Positions 15,683-21,221 of a stretch of DNA of 32,000 nucleotides are shown here, piece by piece. Below the pieces are notes generated by a model that saw only the letters and a program-made list of their open reading frames with translations, had not been told where the DNA came from and did no database searches. The position numbers and the translations under genes are program-made. The stretch comes from Cupriavidus necator (GTDB taxonomy: Bacteria > Pseudomonadota > Gammaproteobacteria > Burkholderiales > Burkholderiaceae): assembly GCF_016127575.1 (NCBI RefSeq), contig NZ_CP066019.1:480001-512000 (forward strand), in the 5' to 3' direction. Position 1 is the stretch's first letter, and the number at the start of each line of letters is the position of its first letter.

Positions 15683-16249
15683 ATGCCGGATATTCGCTAC
15701 GCACTCCGGAACGGAGACAAGACAAGCTCGGGCGGCATACTCTTCGCCACGGGCCGCAGCATATTCCATCATGACCTGATAGTCGGTGTCGAAGGCGACC
15801 ATGCAACCTGCCCCGCCTGCAAGGTGGGCGGGCCGGTGATGAATGACTGTTATCCGGCCGTCGATGTAGATGGCAAACAGATGTTGGTGACTGGTGCGCG
15901 AGTCAATTGCAAGTGCCCGACTCACCCGGTTGTCATCCACTCGCGGATGGATTTCATTATTGAGGTGAACCGGGGAGGCCGCAATGCGCCGCCGCCGCCA
16001 TCGTCCGCGTCCTTGGCCTCTTCGAACCTGACTTCGCCCGCGACAGGTGACTACGACGAGCAAGTCCGAGTCCGAGCGGGTAATACACCCTTGGAAGGCT
16101 ACCCCTACTTCATCGCGACGCCCGACGGGCGGGCATTCTCCGGGTGTATAGACGAAAGCCGCAAGTTACCCCGCATATATACAAAGAACCTCAACGAGTA
16201 CGCAATTTATTGGGGCGATGACGCTCTAGCAAAACAGATAGAGGTATGA
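15683..16249 (+). CDS. PAAR-domain protein with Pro/Ser linker and ~85-aa C-terminal extension
   Basis: The sequence ALRNGDKTSSGGILFATGRS...VGVEGDHATCPACKVGGPVMN...VTGARVNCKCPTHPVVIHS is a PAAR fold with Cys/His Zn-site residues. It is followed by GGRNAPPPPSSASLASSNLTSP and a distinct C-terminal module. Confidence 0.82.
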   Translation: MPDIRYALRNGDKTSSGGILFATGRSIFHHDLIVGVEGDHATCPACKVGGPVMNDCYPAVDVDGKQMLVTGARVNCKCPTHPVVIHSRMDFIIEVNRGGRNAPPPPSSASLASSNLTSPATGDYDEQVRVRAGNTPLEGYPYFIATPDGRAFSGCIDESRKLPRIYTKNLNEYAIYWGDDALAKQIEV

Positions 16250-17070: not shown

Positions 17071-17103
17071 GGCACAAATCCACTATTTTTCAAGCGTATA
17101 CAT

Positions 17104-17136
17104 GCGCCGCGCCATGATTCCATCATGGCGCGGCGC
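17104..17136. terminator. Perfect 15-bp stem / 3-nt loop hairpin between convergent genes (bidirectional terminator candidate)
   Basis: The sequence gcgccgcgccatgat-tcc-atcatggcgcggcgc was read directly. It lies between the island's last ORF (stop at 17070) and the dadA-like stop (17195). Flanking T-tracts are weak. Confidence 0.55.
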
Positions 17137-17194
17137 TGTTCGAGCACGGTGGCCCTATCTTACAAATGGGAGAGGGGAGAAAACACCCGCGAAC

Positions 17195-18463
17195 TCAAGC
17201 CTTGGCCAATGCCATCGGCGCACCCGCCGCGACTGCCACCTTCGCGCCGACATGCTGGTCGACAACCCCTGCCACCATATCCGCCGTCACCGCCGACAAA
17301 GTCCACCCCAGGTGCCCATGCCCGGTGTTGTAGAAGATGCAGGCCGCACGCCCGCGCCCCACGCGCGGCAGCATATCCGGCATCATCGGCCGCAGCCCGG
17401 CCCAAGGCACCACGCTGCGCGTGCTGACGCCGGGGAAGCACTGCTGCACCCATTCCACCAGCGGGCGGATGCGGTCGGCGCGGATATCGCGGTTGTAGCC
17501 GTTGAACTCGGCGGTGCCGGCCACGCGGAAGCGGTCGTCGCCCAGGCGGCTGGTGACCAGCTTGGTTTCGTCGTCGAGCAGGCTGACCACCGGTGCGGCG
17601 GCGCGGCTGGCCTCATCGGTCAGGTTGACCGTGATCGAATAGCCCTTGACCGGATAGATGTTGACGCGGTCGCCCAGCCCGGCGGCCAGTGCGCGGCTGG
17701 CGGTGCCGGCGCAGATCACGGCGCCGTCGAAGGTGGAGGTGGCCGTGTCGGCGCCGTCCTGCACGGTCACGGTGGCGCGCCTGCCGTCGGTCTTCACCGC
17801 CCGCACGTCCTGGCCGTACAGGCAGCGCACGCCCAGCCGATCGATGGCTGCGGCCAGGCCGCTGGTGAACTTGTGGATGTCGCCGGTGGAATCGCTCTCG
17901 GTGAAGTAGCCGCCGTAGTACGAGCCGGCCAGCGTCGGCTCGATCGCGCGCATCTCCTCGGGCGTCACGGCGCGCCGTTCCAGCCCGCCCTGCGCCAGCA
18001 GTGCCGAGACCCGGCCGGCATGCTCGAAGCCGGTCTTGTCGCGGTAGATATGGAGGATGCCTTCCTTCTTCAGGTCGAAATCGATGCCTTCCTGCGCCGC
18101 CCAGGCGAACAGGTGCTCACGCGCCGCGATGGCCAGGCGCGCGGTCTCGATGGTGTTGCGGCGGTAGTGGGGGATCGCGGCGATGAACTCGGCGAACCAG
18201 GACAGCTTGTGCCAGCTGGGCCGGGGATTGACCAACAACGGGGCGTCGTTGCGCAGCATCCATTTCATGCCCTTGACGAGGGTCGACCAGTGGGTCCAGA
18301 CCTCGGCGTTGGAGGCCGACAACTGGCCGCCGTTGGCGAACGAGGTCTCCATGGCGGCATAGCGGTGCCGTTCGAACAGCGTGACGGAGAATCCGCGCCG
18401 GGCCAGCGCGTAGGCCGTGGTGACACCCGTGATGCCACCGCCGATGACAGCGATTGATTTCAT
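17195..18463 (-). CDS. FAD-dependent oxidoreductase, D-amino-acid dehydrogenase (DadA) family
   Basis: The start is the internal ATG at 18463 (MKSIAVIGGGITGVTTAYALARRG, a GxGxxG motif). The protein is collinear with E. coli DadA as recalled (ALETSxANxGQ, YPxKGYS, GLRPMxPD, NTGHGxLGWT). The longer 18553 start would read through the riboswitch. Confidence 0.9.
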   Translation of the reverse strand: MKSIAVIGGGITGVTTAYALARRGFSVTLFERHRYAAMETSFANGGQLSASNAEVWTHWSTLVKGMKWMLRNDAPLLVNPRPSWHKLSWFAEFIAAIPHYRRNTIETARLAIAAREHLFAWAAQEGIDFDLKKEGILHIYRDKTGFEHAGRVSALLAQGGLERRAVTPEEMRAIEPTLAGSYYGGYFTESDSTGDIHKFTSGLAAAIDRLGVRCLYGQDVRAVKTDGRRATVTVQDGADTATSTFDGAVICAGTASRALAAGLGDRVNIYPVKGYSITVNLTDEASRAAAPVVSLLDDETKLVTSRLGDDRFRVAGTAEFNGYNRDIRADRIRPLVEWVQQCFPGVSTRSVVPWAGLRPMMPDMLPRVGRGRAACIFYNTGHGHLGWTLSAVTADMVAGVVDQHVGAKVAVAAGAPMALAKA

Positions 18464-18527
18464 GATCTGCAGGTTCCAGGAACGTCGATGGTGGGAGCCC
18501 GGACGCAATATGCGTGGCGGACGCCCC

Positions 18528-18729
18528 CTCTGTTCTGGACCTGAGAGATTCACGCCACCCGGCCGCGAGGGCGGGGCGCGCTTGCTCCTTCGGTATGCCG
18601 GCGGACGATAGCGTCCGGCATTCTTCAGAGTGCACTGACTGGTGATGCCGGTCCTTTTGCCTGAGAGTTTCCGGGGCGGTTGCTCCTTCGGCGCTGTCCG
18701 CGGCGGGCACCGCGACAGTCTCTCCCTGC
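18528..18729 (-). promoter_or_regulatory. Tandem glycine riboswitch (two aptamers) in the 5' leader of the dadA-like gene
   Basis: Minus-strand aptamer 1 reads GGGAGAG...GCGCCGAAGGAGCAAcc...CUCUCAGGCAAAAGGAC. Aptamer 2 reads CACUCUGAAGAA...ACCGAAGGAGCAAgc...CUCUCAGGUCCAGAACAGAG. These match the conserved glycine-riboswitch cores (GGAGAG / CCGAAGGxGCAA / CUCUCAGGCAAAAGGAC). Confidence 0.8.
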
Positions 18730-18944
18730 ATCACATTGGCTTGACGCCAATCCGGGCAATGTAGTGACAAGGCTCGACGTTGGATATGCGGGTTAACGCT
18801 TAGGCAGCCTGCCGCCCGCGTCGCTATGTCGCATCGGCCTGCGCCCCCGTGCCCCATAAAATGTCAGCGCTCGCTCTCGGGGAGAGGCGCCGTATGCTGC
18901 GCTCAGGTGGAGTGAGTCGAAAAAGACGACAACAAGGTTTTCCA

Positions 18945-21221
18945 GTGAAGAAGAATCGCATTGCACTGGCCGTTTCGGCGGTGCTGATGGGCCCCGCCGT
19001 CGCCGCCGCCCAGGTGGTGGACGCGCCCGAGCCGCTGCAGGAGGTGGTGGTCTCGGCCAAGTCGGAGCGCGCCGAGACGCCGGCCATACCGCCCAACACG
19101 CCCTCGCCGGCCTACGGCATCAGCCGCCGCCGCATGGCCGACTTCAATGTGGTGAACACGGAAGACGCCCTCAAGTACGCGCCCAACCTCGCCGTACGCA
19201 AGCGCTTCATCGGCGATATGAATTCGATCATCTCGGTGCGCAGCACCAGTTCGCGCCAGTCGGCGCGGGGGCTGGTCTATGCGGACGGCCTGCTGCTGTC
19301 CAACCTGCTGGGATCGGACTTCAGCTTCCCGCCGCGCTGGTCGCTGGTCAACAGCGCCGAGATCGAGCGCATGGATGTGCTGTACGGCCCGTATTCGGCG
19401 CTGTATCCCGGCAACTCGCTGGGCGCGACGGTGCTGATCACCACGCGCACGCCGGAGAAGTTCGAGGGCGATGCCAGCGTGCAGCTGTTCACGCAGCGCT
19501 TCAGCCTGTATGGCACGCACGACAACTTCAACGGGGTCCACGCCAACGCCTATGTGGGCGACCGCGTCGGCCCGTTCTCGTGGCTGGTCAGCGTGGACCG
19601 GCAGGACAGCAAGAGCCAGCCGCTGAGTTTCTATACCGCGGCGCGTTCCACGGCCCGTGCCACTTCCGCCGACAAGCCGGTCACCGGCGCGCACTTCGAC
19701 CAGGACCAGACCGGCCGCGAGCGCGTGGTGATGGGCGTGAACAGCGAGGGCGTCACGCATACCGTGCAGGACCAGCTCAAGCTCAAGCTCGGCTACGACA
19801 TCACCAATACCCTGCAGGCGCAGTTCACCGCGGCCTACTGGCAGCAGGACCGCTCCAGTGCCACCGGCAGCTACCTGCGCGATGCCGATGGCAATGTTGT
19901 GTCGAGCGGTCCCGTGAATATCGGCGGTTATCGCTATGTGATTCCCGCCAACGCCTTCGCCCCGAGCAATGGCGAGGACGCGCGCTGGCTCTATGGCCTG
20001 TCGCTGCGTACGCGCAATGAGACCGGCTGGAATTTCTCGGGCGTGGCGTCGCTGTTCGATGTCAGCAAGGACATCAGCCGCAGCGCCAACACCGTCGGCA
20101 GCGGGCCGGGCACGGTGACCTATGGCGACGGCACCGGCTGGCGCACGCTCGACCTGAAGGCCGACTACCGGCCGCGGCAGCTGCAGGGCGGGCACTGGGT
20201 CACGTTCGGCTACCACTATGACAATTACCGGCTGAGCAACACCACCTACAACACCTCGGACTGGCAGGCGGCCACCATCAGCGCCTTCAACAACGCCTTT
20301 GCCGGCAAGACCGAGACCCAGGCGCTGTATGCGCAAGACGCCTGGTACTTTGCCGAGGACTGGAAGCTGATCCCCGGCGTGCGCTACGAACACTGGCGCG
20401 CCTATGACGGCAGCCGCAGCCAGCCCGGCGTGGATATCGGCTACCCGGTGCGCAGCGAATCCAACTGGTCGCCCAAGCTGGCGCTGGAGAAGGCATTCGG
20501 GCAGGACTGGCTGGGCCGGTTGTCGCTGGGCCAGGCCTATCGCTATCCGACTGTCAGCGAGCTGTTCCAGGGCCGCATCACCGGGACCGCGTTGATCAAC
20601 AACGATCCCAACCTGCAGCCCGAGCGGTCGTTCTCGAAGGACCTGACCTTCGAGCGCACGCTGGATTCGTCGTACTTCCGGGTCTCGGTGTATGAGGACG
20701 ATATCCGCGATGCCCTGGTCAGCCAGACCAACACCACGGTATTCCCGACTGTCACCAGCTTTCAGAACGTCGACCGCGTGCGCACCCGCGGCATCGAGCT
20801 GGCCTATGACGCGCGCGATGTGTTCGTCAGCGGCTTCGACCTGTCGGCCAGCGGGGCCTACAACCATTCGAAGACGCTTGAGAACGCCAACAACCCGGCC
20901 TCGGTGGGCAAGTACTTCTACCGCATCCCCAAGTGGCGGGCCAACCTGATGGGCACCTATCGCATCACGCCGGCCTGGGCCGGCACGCTGGCCATGACCT
21001 ATTCGGGGCGGCAGTACAATACGCTCGACAATTCCGACGTCAACCCCGACACCTTCGGCGGCACCAGCAGCTTCCTGACCTTTGACGTCAAGCTGACGTA
21101 CCGGCCCGCGAAGAACGTGCGCCTCGGGCTTGGCATCGACAACCTCACCGACCAGCGCTACTACGTCTATCACCCGTATCCGGGCCGGACGTTCTACGCC
21201 GAGGCGAAACTCTCCTTCTGA
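18945..21221 (+). CDS. TonB-dependent outer-membrane receptor
   Basis: The GTG at 18945 gives the signal peptide VKKNRIALAVSAVLMGPAVAAAQ, with ATG 18894 as an alternative. It has a plug region (EVVVSA..., NTEDALKYAPNLAVR, IERMDVLYGPYSALYPGNSLGATV). The barrel ends ...GRTFYAEAKLSF with a terminal Phe. Confidence 0.9.
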   Translation: MKKNRIALAVSAVLMGPAVAAAQVVDAPEPLQEVVVSAKSERAETPAIPPNTPSPAYGISRRRMADFNVVNTEDALKYAPNLAVRKRFIGDMNSIISVRSTSSRQSARGLVYADGLLLSNLLGSDFSFPPRWSLVNSAEIERMDVLYGPYSALYPGNSLGATVLITTRTPEKFEGDASVQLFTQRFSLYGTHDNFNGVHANAYVGDRVGPFSWLVSVDRQDSKSQPLSFYTAARSTARATSADKPVTGAHFDQDQTGRERVVMGVNSEGVTHTVQDQLKLKLGYDITNTLQAQFTAAYWQQDRSSATGSYLRDADGNVVSSGPVNIGGYRYVIPANAFAPSNGEDARWLYGLSLRTRNETGWNFSGVASLFDVSKDISRSANTVGSGPGTVTYGDGTGWRTLDLKADYRPRQLQGGHWVTFGYHYDNYRLSNTTYNTSDWQAATISAFNNAFAGKTETQALYAQDAWYFAEDWKLIPGVRYEHWRAYDGSRSQPGVDIGYPVRSESNWSPKLALEKAFGQDWLGRLSLGQAYRYPTVSELFQGRITGTALINNDPNLQPERSFSKDLTFERTLDSSYFRVSVYEDDIRDALVSQTNTTVFPTVTSFQNVDRVRTRGIELAYDARDVFVSGFDLSASGAYNHSKTLENANNPASVGKYFYRIPKWRANLMGTYRITPAWAGTLAMTYSGRQYNTLDNSDVNPDTFGGTSSFLTFDVKLTYRPAKNVRLGLGIDNLTDQRYYVYHPYPGRTFYAEAKLSF

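What the first reader, a model, noticed from the sequence alone, without database searches (positions are those of the whole stretch)
17195..18729. Tandem glycine riboswitch controlling a DadA-family FAD oxidoreductase instead of the gcv operon
The minus-strand leader contains two aptamers with the canonical cores: GGGAGAG...GCGCCGAAGGAGCAA...CUCUCAGGCAAAAGGAC, then CUCUGAAGAA...ACCGAAGGAGCAA...CUCUCAGG...CAGAG. They end about 65 nt before the ATG at 18463. Glycine riboswitches classically switch on the glycine cleavage genes (gcvT/H/P). Here the regulated gene is a stand-alone D-amino-acid-dehydrogenase homolog. That suggests it acts on glycine in vivo (oxidative deamination to glyoxylate) as a glycine-detoxification or utilisation route. 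The second aptamer has GAAGAA where GGAGAG is usual, which may be a functional deviation.
Basis: partly seen in the sequence, partly recalled or inferred. Interest (0 to 1): 0.6.

Follow-up and report, generated by a model that had tools for sequence, protein, structure and literature searches.

The report
Known glycine riboswitch on dadA6
A genuine two-sensor glycine riboswitch sits in front of dadA6 of Cupriavidus necator H16, a gene already shown by experiment to oxidise glycine to glyoxylate, and this RNA-gene pairing has been listed in a public regulon catalogue since 2013, so the finding is correct but ordinary.

Summary
Rfam RF00504 matches window 18737-18639(-) at 62.3 bits and 18638-18520(-) at 41.8 bits (threshold 32), directly upstream of a 422-aa DAO-family gene (18463-17195, minus strand).

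Published dadA6 deletion-check primers match the window exactly on either side of this gene. It is therefore dadA6 of C. necator H16.

Claassens et al. 2020 showed three things. dadA6 is induced about 200-fold on glycine. It converts glycine to glyoxylate in an E. coli biosensor. Its deletion abolishes growth on glycine.

Sun et al. 2013 (RegPrecise) already list the H16 glycine-riboswitch regulon as "gcvTHP-sdaA; dadA". The switch acts in addition to the gcv operon, not instead of it. A second tandem switch precedes gcvTHP-sdaA on chromosome 1.

The pairing is nearly universal. RF00504 lies upstream of 27 of 28 orthologues sampled in the family, and of all 16 further PRK12409 loci sampled across the phylum.

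The leader has no terminator. In 28 leaders the 3' part of aptamer 2 is complementary to the SD-AUG region, so I infer a translational ON switch. GAAGAA is a clade-conserved variant in the helical junction, not in the ligand pocket.

This scan has found the same thing in at least 10 other genomes. Verdict: already known, low interest.

The parts
18758..18794 (-). Conserved upstream block AACCCGCATATCCA (18794-18781) followed by TACATT (18763-18758). This is a candidate -10 hexamer and promoter/operator region. The transcription start was not determined.
   Evidence: The block is conserved in the four other Cupriavidus-type loci and, in part, in two genomes of another family. TACATT is also the -10 hexamer of the promoter-like site before the gcvT riboswitch in the same genome. 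The consensus promoter scan found no site on this strand upstream of the aptamers.
18639..18737 (-). Glycine riboswitch aptamer 1
   Evidence: RF00504, 62.3 bits against a gathering score of 32, full model 1-94.
18520..18638 (-). Glycine riboswitch aptamer 2. The junction reads GAAGAA instead of GGAGAG. The P3-bulge cores ACCGAAGGAGCAA and CUCUCAGG are intact.
   Evidence: RF00504, 41.8 bits against 32, full model 1-94. The variant is conserved in relatives.
18461..18543 (-). Expression platform. The 3' part of aptamer 2 (18543-18518, CAGGUCCAGAACAGAGGGGGCGUC) is complementary to the SD-AUG region (18489-18461) and encloses a small hairpin. This is an inferred SD-sequestering helix.
   Evidence: The MFE fold of 18545-18455 is -38 kcal/mol, z -3.5. 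In the full-leader fold the SD-AUG region is paired with P>=0.9, and pairing falls to 0.04-0.5 when both P1 helices are enforced. Equivalent complementarity occurs in 28 leaders, mean z -2.5. No terminator-like site lies on this strand.
18474..18477 (-). Weak Shine-Dalgarno-like GGAA inside the conserved YCUGGA motif
   Evidence: The CUGGA motif precedes the start codon in most orthologous leaders.
17195..18463 (-). dadA6: a 422-aa FAD-dependent glycine-oxidising enzyme of NCBIfam family PRK12409/NF009074
   Evidence: Translation. Pfam DAO. NF009074 at 754 bits against a cut-off of 494. Published dadA6 check primers match at 16092(+) and 19634(-) with 0 mismatches. Function from Claassens 2020.
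17100..17139 (.). GC-rich perfect hairpin after the stop codon, between convergent genes. It is probably a shared transcript end.
   Evidence: Fold of 17200-17090: -49.1 kcal/mol, z -4.2. No U-run follows it on the minus strand.

Best explanation
This is the tandem glycine riboswitch of dadA6 in Cupriavidus necator H16. When glycine is plentiful it binds the aptamers, which fold and dimerise. This locks the 3' strand of P1 and the adjoining junction of aptamer 2 into the aptamer. That segment can then no longer pair with the Shine-Dalgarno/start-codon region, so ribosomes load and DadA6 is made (an ON switch acting on translation). DadA6, an FAD enzyme of the PRK12409 branch of the DAO superfamily, oxidises glycine to glyoxylate, which enters the glycerate pathway. 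In parallel, a second tandem riboswitch with an intrinsic terminator switches on gcvTHP-sdaA. Shown here or in print: the two aptamers, the gene's identity, its induction by glycine, its glycine-to-glyoxylate activity in vivo, its necessity for growth on glycine, and the conservation of the RNA-gene pairing. Inferred: that the riboswitch is the cause of the induction, and that it works by SD sequestration.
For: Both aptamers exceed the Rfam gathering score. Published dadA6 primers flank the gene exactly. dadA6 is induced about 200-fold on glycine, rescues an E. coli glyoxylate auxotroph fed glycine, and its deletion abolishes growth on glycine. Sun 2013 lists 'gcvTHP-sdaA; dadA' for R. eutropha H16. 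RF00504 lies directly upstream of 27 of 28 orthologues (62% identity or more) in a sample of 150 genomes of the family. It also lies upstream of all 16 further NF009074 loci in a sample of 401 genomes of the phylum. All 27 orthologous leaders with a hit carry two CUCUCAGG cores. There is no terminator in the leader. The SD-AUG region pairs with the 3' part of aptamer 2 in unconstrained folds of 20 leaders. Duplex energies are -16 to -26 kcal/mol with mean z -2.5 in 28 leaders, and different clades use different sequences (CAGGUCC/GGAACCUG, ACAUGG/CCAUGU, AUGGGGUGA/UCACUCCAU). Enforcing both P1 helices frees the AUG: P(paired) falls from 0.95 to 0.08.
Against: No binding or reporter data exist for this RNA. 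The 200-fold change was measured at transcript level, which a purely translational switch explains only indirectly, through mRNA stabilisation or relief of Rho termination. The modelled free-energy gap between the SD-sequestered fold and the aptamer fold is large (-119.8 against -100.3 kcal/mol). It ignores tertiary contacts and co-transcriptional folding. The SD is weak (GGAA, 11-14 nt from the AUG). Shuffle z-scores for single leaders are modest (-0.5 to -4.2), and the leaders are related to one another. A conserved upstream block could be the site of an additional protein regulator.
Confidence: 0.8

Rival explanations
1. The large glycine induction of dadA6 mRNA is driven mainly at transcription, and the riboswitch only fine-tunes it. 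The driver would be a glycine-responsive protein regulator acting on the conserved upstream block, or Rho-dependent termination in the leader.
For: Induction was measured as transcript abundance. No intrinsic terminator is present in the leader. A block AACCCGYATATCCA...CTACATTG upstream of the aptamers is conserved across genera.
Against: The riboswitch is kept upstream of 43 of 44 sampled family members across several classes, whereas the upstream block is conserved only among close relatives. Translational riboswitches commonly change mRNA levels secondarily (general knowledge). No regulator gene lies next to dadA6: the neighbours are a TonB-dependent receptor and a T6SS cassette.
Confidence: 0.2
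2. Aptamer 2 no longer binds glycine and serves only as a structural partner and expression-platform carrier. The switch would then be functionally a singlet driven by aptamer 1.
For: Aptamer 2 scores much lower (41.8 against 62.3 bits). It reaches the Rfam threshold in only 9 of 27 family-level leaders and in 4 of 16 phylum-level leaders. Its junction deviates (GAAGAA). In ON switches the first aptamer is the better conserved one (Crum 2019). A pocket mutation in aptamer 2 of B. subtilis left regulation intact (Babina 2017).
Against: The P3-bulge pocket sequences ACCGAAGGAGCAA and CUCUCAGG are intact in aptamer 2 of every leader examined. Glycine binds in the P3 bulge, not in the three-helix junction where GAAGAA lies (Ruff and Strobel 2014). 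The low scores stem largely from long, variable insertions in the P3b region (alignment).
Confidence: 0.2
3. DadA6 is primarily a D-amino-acid dehydrogenase, as annotated, and glycine oxidation is a side activity. The riboswitch would then report glycine only as a proxy signal.
For: NCBIfam names the family 'D-amino acid dehydrogenase'. No kinetics with purified enzyme were found. The related B. subtilis glycine oxidase also accepts D-amino acids (cited).
Against: Deleting dadA6 abolishes growth on glycine, and heterologous expression supplies glyoxylate from glycine. The family is almost invariably under a glycine-specific riboswitch. The protein fails the canonical DadA model (339 bits against a cut-off of 383). 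Its nearest solved structures are glycine oxidases.
Confidence: 0.08

Closest known systems
Glycine-riboswitch regulon of Ralstonia eutropha H16 in RegPrecise (Sun et al. 2013, BMC Genomics 14:597, Additional file 1)
   Same: It is the same genome, the same RNA family and the same target. The entry reads 'gcvTHP-sdaA; dadA'. The same entry appears for C. taiwanensis, C. metallidurans CH34, JMP134, R. pickettii, B. xenovorans and B. vietnamiensis, and for Paracoccus, Loktanella and Oceanicola.
   Different: The catalogue entry is computational only. It gives no mechanism and does not link to the later DadA6 experiments.
DadA6 glycine oxidation route of C. necator H16 (Claassens et al. 2020, bioRxiv 10.1101/2020.03.11.987487; Nat Microbiol 2025, PMC11879842)
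   Same: It is the same gene, as shown by the primer matches. The work shows glycine-induced expression, glycine-to-glyoxylate activity and necessity for growth on glycine.
   Different: These papers never mention a riboswitch for dadA6. The cause of the induction was left open.
Tandem glycine ON riboswitch of the gcvT operon (B. subtilis; also the gcvTHP-sdaA leader of this genome)
   Same: Two RF00504 aptamers are followed by one expression platform, and the switch turns on glycine catabolism. The 3' strand of P1 of aptamer 2 is the switching element.
   Different: The gcvT leader of this genome ends in a -59.9 kcal/mol hairpin followed by U6GU4, an intrinsic terminator. It also has the canonical GGAGAG in aptamer 2. 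The dadA6 leader has no terminator and appears to sequester the SD instead.
Glycine riboswitch on malate synthase glcB in 'Candidatus Pelagibacter ubique' (Kazanov et al. 2007)
   Same: It is another documented case of a glycine riboswitch controlling a gene of the glyoxylate branch rather than glycine cleavage.
   Different: The target enzyme is different (it consumes glyoxylate rather than producing it), and so is the lineage.

Membership tests
Glycine riboswitch, Rfam RF00504 (tandem architecture) | Each aptamer reaches the family's gathering score (32 bits) over the full model | tested here: met
   62.3 and 41.8 bits, model positions 1-94 for both.
Glycine riboswitch, Rfam RF00504 (tandem architecture) | [quoted passage not shown] | tested here: met
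   The aptamers abut at 18639/18638. One 56-nt platform then precedes the ATG at 18463.
Glycine riboswitch, Rfam RF00504 (tandem architecture) | Conserved P3-bulge ligand-pocket sequences in both aptamers | tested here: met
   CCGAAGGAGCAA and CUCUCAGG are present in both aptamers. The location of the pocket follows Ruff and Strobel 2014.
Glycine riboswitch, Rfam RF00504 (tandem architecture) | Leader-linker P0 helix with kink-turn, present in over 90% of tandem switches | not tested
   The transcription start is unknown. I saw a small 5' hairpin, UUGGC-GUCAA-GCCAA at 18750-18736, with compensatory changes in relatives. I did not analyse it as a kink-turn.
Glycine riboswitch, Rfam RF00504 (tandem architecture) | Glycine binding and glycine-dependent gene control | not testable with these tools
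   The support is indirect only: about 200-fold induction of dadA6 on glycine.
NCBIfam NF009074 (PRK12409, named 'D-amino acid dehydrogenase') | Whole-protein score at or above the curated cut-off of 494 bits | tested here: met
   754 bits over residues 1-406. It is the only member above the cut-off in this genome.
Canonical DadA, NCBIfam NF001933 (PRK00711) | Score at or above the cut-off of 383 bits | tested here: not met
   338.9 bits.
Glycine oxidase ThiO, TIGR02352 | Score at or above the cut-off of 250.8 bits | tested here: not met
   143.5 bits. The nearest PDB chains are nevertheless glycine oxidases, at E 1.6e-14 and weaker.
dadA6 of Cupriavidus necator H16 | Published dadA6 deletion-check primers flank the gene | tested here: met
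   dadA6-for matches at 16092(+) and dadA6-rev at 19634(-). Both have 0 mismatches and 0 matches expected by chance.

The most novel reading that the evidence does not exclude
The whole NCBIfam 'equivalog' PRK12409, currently named D-amino acid dehydrogenase, may in fact be a family of glycine-oxidising enzymes. Across Pseudomonadota they are almost always expressed from their own class of tandem glycine riboswitch. In the Burkholderiaceae leaders this class acts by SD sequestration, and across the phylum it commonly has GAAGAR in the junction of aptamer 2. If so, the family name is wrong, and a riboswitch-gated 'glyoxylate route' for glycine runs beside glycine cleavage in many soil and water bacteria.
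Probability: 0.55. Interest if true: 0.3.

Novelty: already known. Interest (0 to 1): 0.13.

Why it matters
The finding matters little as a discovery. The RNA-gene pairing has been in RegPrecise since 2013, and the enzyme's action on glycine was shown in 2020.

Two small practical points remain.

(1) The C. necator engineering papers that delete or rely on dadA6 do not mention that its roughly 200-fold induction by glycine is very probably riboswitch-driven. This is useful to anyone tuning the reductive glycine pathway or building glycine sensors in this host.

(2) Nearly every PRK12409 gene sampled is coupled to a glycine riboswitch (43 of 44 sampled loci outside this genome). This argues that the family's database name, D-amino acid dehydrogenase, should be revised towards glycine oxidase or glycine dehydrogenase.

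Tried and rejected
- **Intrinsic terminator in the dadA6 leader.** The scan found none on the minus strand, and no U-run is visible. I therefore dropped transcription attenuation by a terminator for this leader. The gcvT leader does have a terminator, although the simple scan missed it because its loop is long.
- **Sigma-70 consensus promoter upstream of the aptamers.** None was found on this strand. Only a conserved TACATT is seen.
- **Rfam E-value search for second aptamers.** In 16 loci that lacked a second hit above threshold, nothing was listed at E<=1. The sequences nevertheless carry a second ACCGAAGG...CUCUCAGG core. I therefore count tandem architecture there by motif, not by Rfam score.
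- **Literature searches.** 'Glycine riboswitch' with 'D-amino acid dehydrogenase' gave 0 papers. With 'dadA' it gave 3 papers; the one I opened was irrelevant. With 'necator' it gave 1 paper, not opened; its title concerns a Gram-positive attenuator tool. With 'glycine oxidase' it gave 2 papers; in the one I opened the term refers to thiO under TPP control. One broad search was uninformative.
- **Crum 2019.** It analyses only GCV and transporter contexts and does not mention DadA.
- **Reading 'the switch replaces gcv control'.** Rejected, because the genome has both switches.
- **Not used.** I did not use structure prediction, the large protein-database searches or complex prediction. The answer did not depend on them.

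Full report
**Observation.** The minus strand of window 18737-18520 holds two adjacent matches to the Rfam glycine riboswitch aptamer RF00504. The first is at 18737-18639 (62.3 bits) and the second at 18638-18520 (41.8 bits). Both cover the full model and both exceed the gathering score of 32. The ORF that follows (ATG 18463 to stop 17195) encodes 422 aa beginning MKSIAVIGGGITG. It matches Pfam DAO at E 3e-69. The finding's own first refutation test, a cmsearch score below the gathering threshold, is therefore not met.

**What the gene is.**
- The protein matches the NCBIfam equivalog NF009074 (PRK12409, 'D-amino acid dehydrogenase') at 754 bits against a cut-off of 494.
- It fails the canonical DadA model NF001933 (339 against 383) and the ThiO glycine oxidase model (143.5 against 250.8).
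- Its nearest solved relatives are glycine oxidases, at E 1.6e-14 and weaker.
- The genome (7.416 Mb, 3 contigs; the window is contig 2, 480001-512000) has only this one PRK12409 member above the cut-off.
- A 2025 paper on Cupriavidus necator H16 gives the colony-PCR primers used to verify the dadA6 deletion. Both match the window with no mismatch, at 16092(+) and 19634(-), and they bracket this gene. The gene is therefore dadA6 of C. necator H16.

**What is already known about it.**
- Claassens et al. 2020 report that dadA6 is among the ten most induced genes on glycine (about 200-fold). They also show that expressing it lets an E. coli glyoxylate auxotroph grow on glycine. Deleting dadA6 or gcl-tsr abolishes growth on glycine, whereas deleting the glycine cleavage genes does not.
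- None of the dadA6 papers mentions a riboswitch for dadA6.
- The RNA-gene link is nevertheless also in print. Additional file 1 of Sun et al. 2013 gives the glycine-riboswitch regulon of 'Ralstonia eutropha H16' as 'gcvTHP-sdaA; dadA'. It gives the same for C. taiwanensis, C. metallidurans, JMP134, R. pickettii, B. xenovorans and B. vietnamiensis. It also lists dadA for several alphaproteobacteria.

**'Instead of' or 'as well as'.** The genome holds exactly two pairs of RF00504 matches. The other pair precedes gcvT-gcvH-gcvP-sdaA on contig 1. That leader has a TTGACA-17-TACATT promoter-like site and the canonical CUCUGGAGAG in aptamer 2. It ends in a -59.9 kcal/mol hairpin (z -9) followed by U6GU4, which is an intrinsic terminator. 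Glycine therefore switches on both catabolic routes.

**Conservation.**
- In 150 sampled genomes of the same family, 29 besides the window's own have a match at E<=1e-80. Of these, 28 are at 62-95% identity and one is a 41% paralogue.
- RF00504 lies directly upstream in 27 of the 28 orthologous loci, and also upstream of the paralogue.
- The exception, L018, is an AT-rich 2.1-Mb genome in which the gene follows another ORF.
- All 27 leaders carry two CUCUCAGG cores. The second aptamer, however, passes the Rfam threshold in only 9 of them.
- In 401 genomes sampled across the phylum, 19 have a PRK12409 member above the cut-off. All 16 loci not already counted have RF00504 directly upstream, and all have tandem cores.
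- These genomes are related to one another, so the counts describe a pattern and are not a statistical test.

**The GAAGAA deviation.**
- The aptamer-2 junction reads GAAGAA in the window and in all nine Cupriavidus-type leaders L007-L015. It reads GAAGAG in L016 and the canonical GGAGAG in the Burkholderia-type leaders.
- Across the phylum, GAAGAA or GAAGAG is common in dadA-type leaders.
- Ruff and Strobel 2014 place glycine in the P3 bulge, not in the three-helix junction. The P3-bulge sequences are intact here.
- Weaker conservation of aptamer 2 is the reported pattern for ON switches.
- I read GAAGAA as a tolerated, lineage-conserved variant. Whether it tunes affinity is untested.

**Mechanism (inferred).**
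- No terminator-like site or U-run lies in the leader.
- Unconstrained folds of 20 leaders pair the SD-AUG region with the 3' part of aptamer 2.
- For the window, 18545-18455 folds at -38 kcal/mol, z -3.5.
- RNAduplex between the last 26 nt of aptamer 2 and the 29 nt ending at the AUG gives -16 to -26 kcal/mol in 28 leaders. The mean z is -2.5 against shuffles. Different clades use different complementary sequences, which I take as compensatory change.
- Enforcing both P1 helices yields the Rfam-like three-way junctions and frees the start codon: P(paired) of the A of the AUG falls from 0.95 to 0.08.
- The most likely mechanism is therefore a translational ON switch. Glycine-stabilised aptamer 2 withholds the anti-SD strand.
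- Caveats: the SD is weak, the modelled energy gap (19.5 kcal/mol) is large, and the published induction is at mRNA level. Rho termination, mRNA stabilisation or an extra regulator acting on the conserved upstream block may contribute.

**Verdict.** Both halves of the story are already published, and this scan has met the same configuration in at least ten other genomes. Novelty: already known. What my calls add is modest:
- the explicit link between the catalogued riboswitch and the DadA6 experiments;
- the near-universal coupling of PRK12409 genes to glycine riboswitches;
- the contrast between a terminator platform on gcvT and an SD-sequestering platform on dadA6 in one genome.

Noticed in passing
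L005:8052-8140 (-), = genome contig 1, about 1676051-1676139: The gcvTHP-sdaA tandem glycine riboswitch of the same genome ends in a very stable hairpin (-59.9 kcal/mol, z -9) followed by U6GU4. Its 5' arm starts in the P1 3' strand of aptamer 2. This is a transcriptional platform, unlike the dadA6 leader.
   Followed up: partly
window 18758-18794 (-): A block AACCCGYATATCCA, about 17 nt of spacer, then CTACATTG lies upstream of the riboswitch. It is conserved in five Cupriavidus-type loci and partly in two genomes of another family (L037, L038). It could be the promoter or the site of an additional regulator.
   Followed up: partly
window 18736-18750 (-): A small hairpin UUGGC-GUCAA-GCCAA sits immediately 5' of P1 of aptamer 1. 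Relatives show compensatory changes (CUGGC...GCCAG in L007, L009 and L010). I did not examine its relation to the usual leader-linker P0/kink-turn.
   Followed up: no
L035:2772-2888 (-): A 41%-identical DadA paralogue in another Cupriavidus-genus genome is preceded by a single glycine aptamer (63.3 bits). This is followed by a GC-rich hairpin and a U-run, which looks like a singlet riboswitch with a terminator.
   Followed up: no
L018:1150-1560: This is the only sampled orthologue without RF00504 within 1.5 kb. It lies in an AT-rich 2.1-Mb genome, where the gene directly follows another ORF and is probably in an operon.
   Followed up: no
L007:1145-1237 (-), L009:3024-3115 (+): Rfam C4 antisense RNA (RF01695, phage-type) matches lie just downstream of the dadA6 orthologue in two related genomes. 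The window carries the low-GC PAAR-Tae4 type VI cassette at the same position. The site downstream of dadA6 looks like a variable insertion spot.
   Followed up: no
L037:4059-4122 (+), L038:145-208 (-): An nhaA-I RNA (RF03057) lies a few kb from the dadA6 orthologue in two genomes of another family.
   Followed up: no
L031, L033, L038, L043: The genome search flags one in-frame TAG or TAA inside the match to the DadA6 orthologue in four genomes. I did not check whether these are real premature stops or matches running past the natural stop codon.
   Followed up: no
window 17100-17139: A perfect 15-bp GC-rich inverted repeat lies between the convergent dadA6 and the small ORF that follows the Tae4 gene. 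It is probably a shared transcript end, although no U-run follows it on the dadA6 strand.
   Followed up: partly
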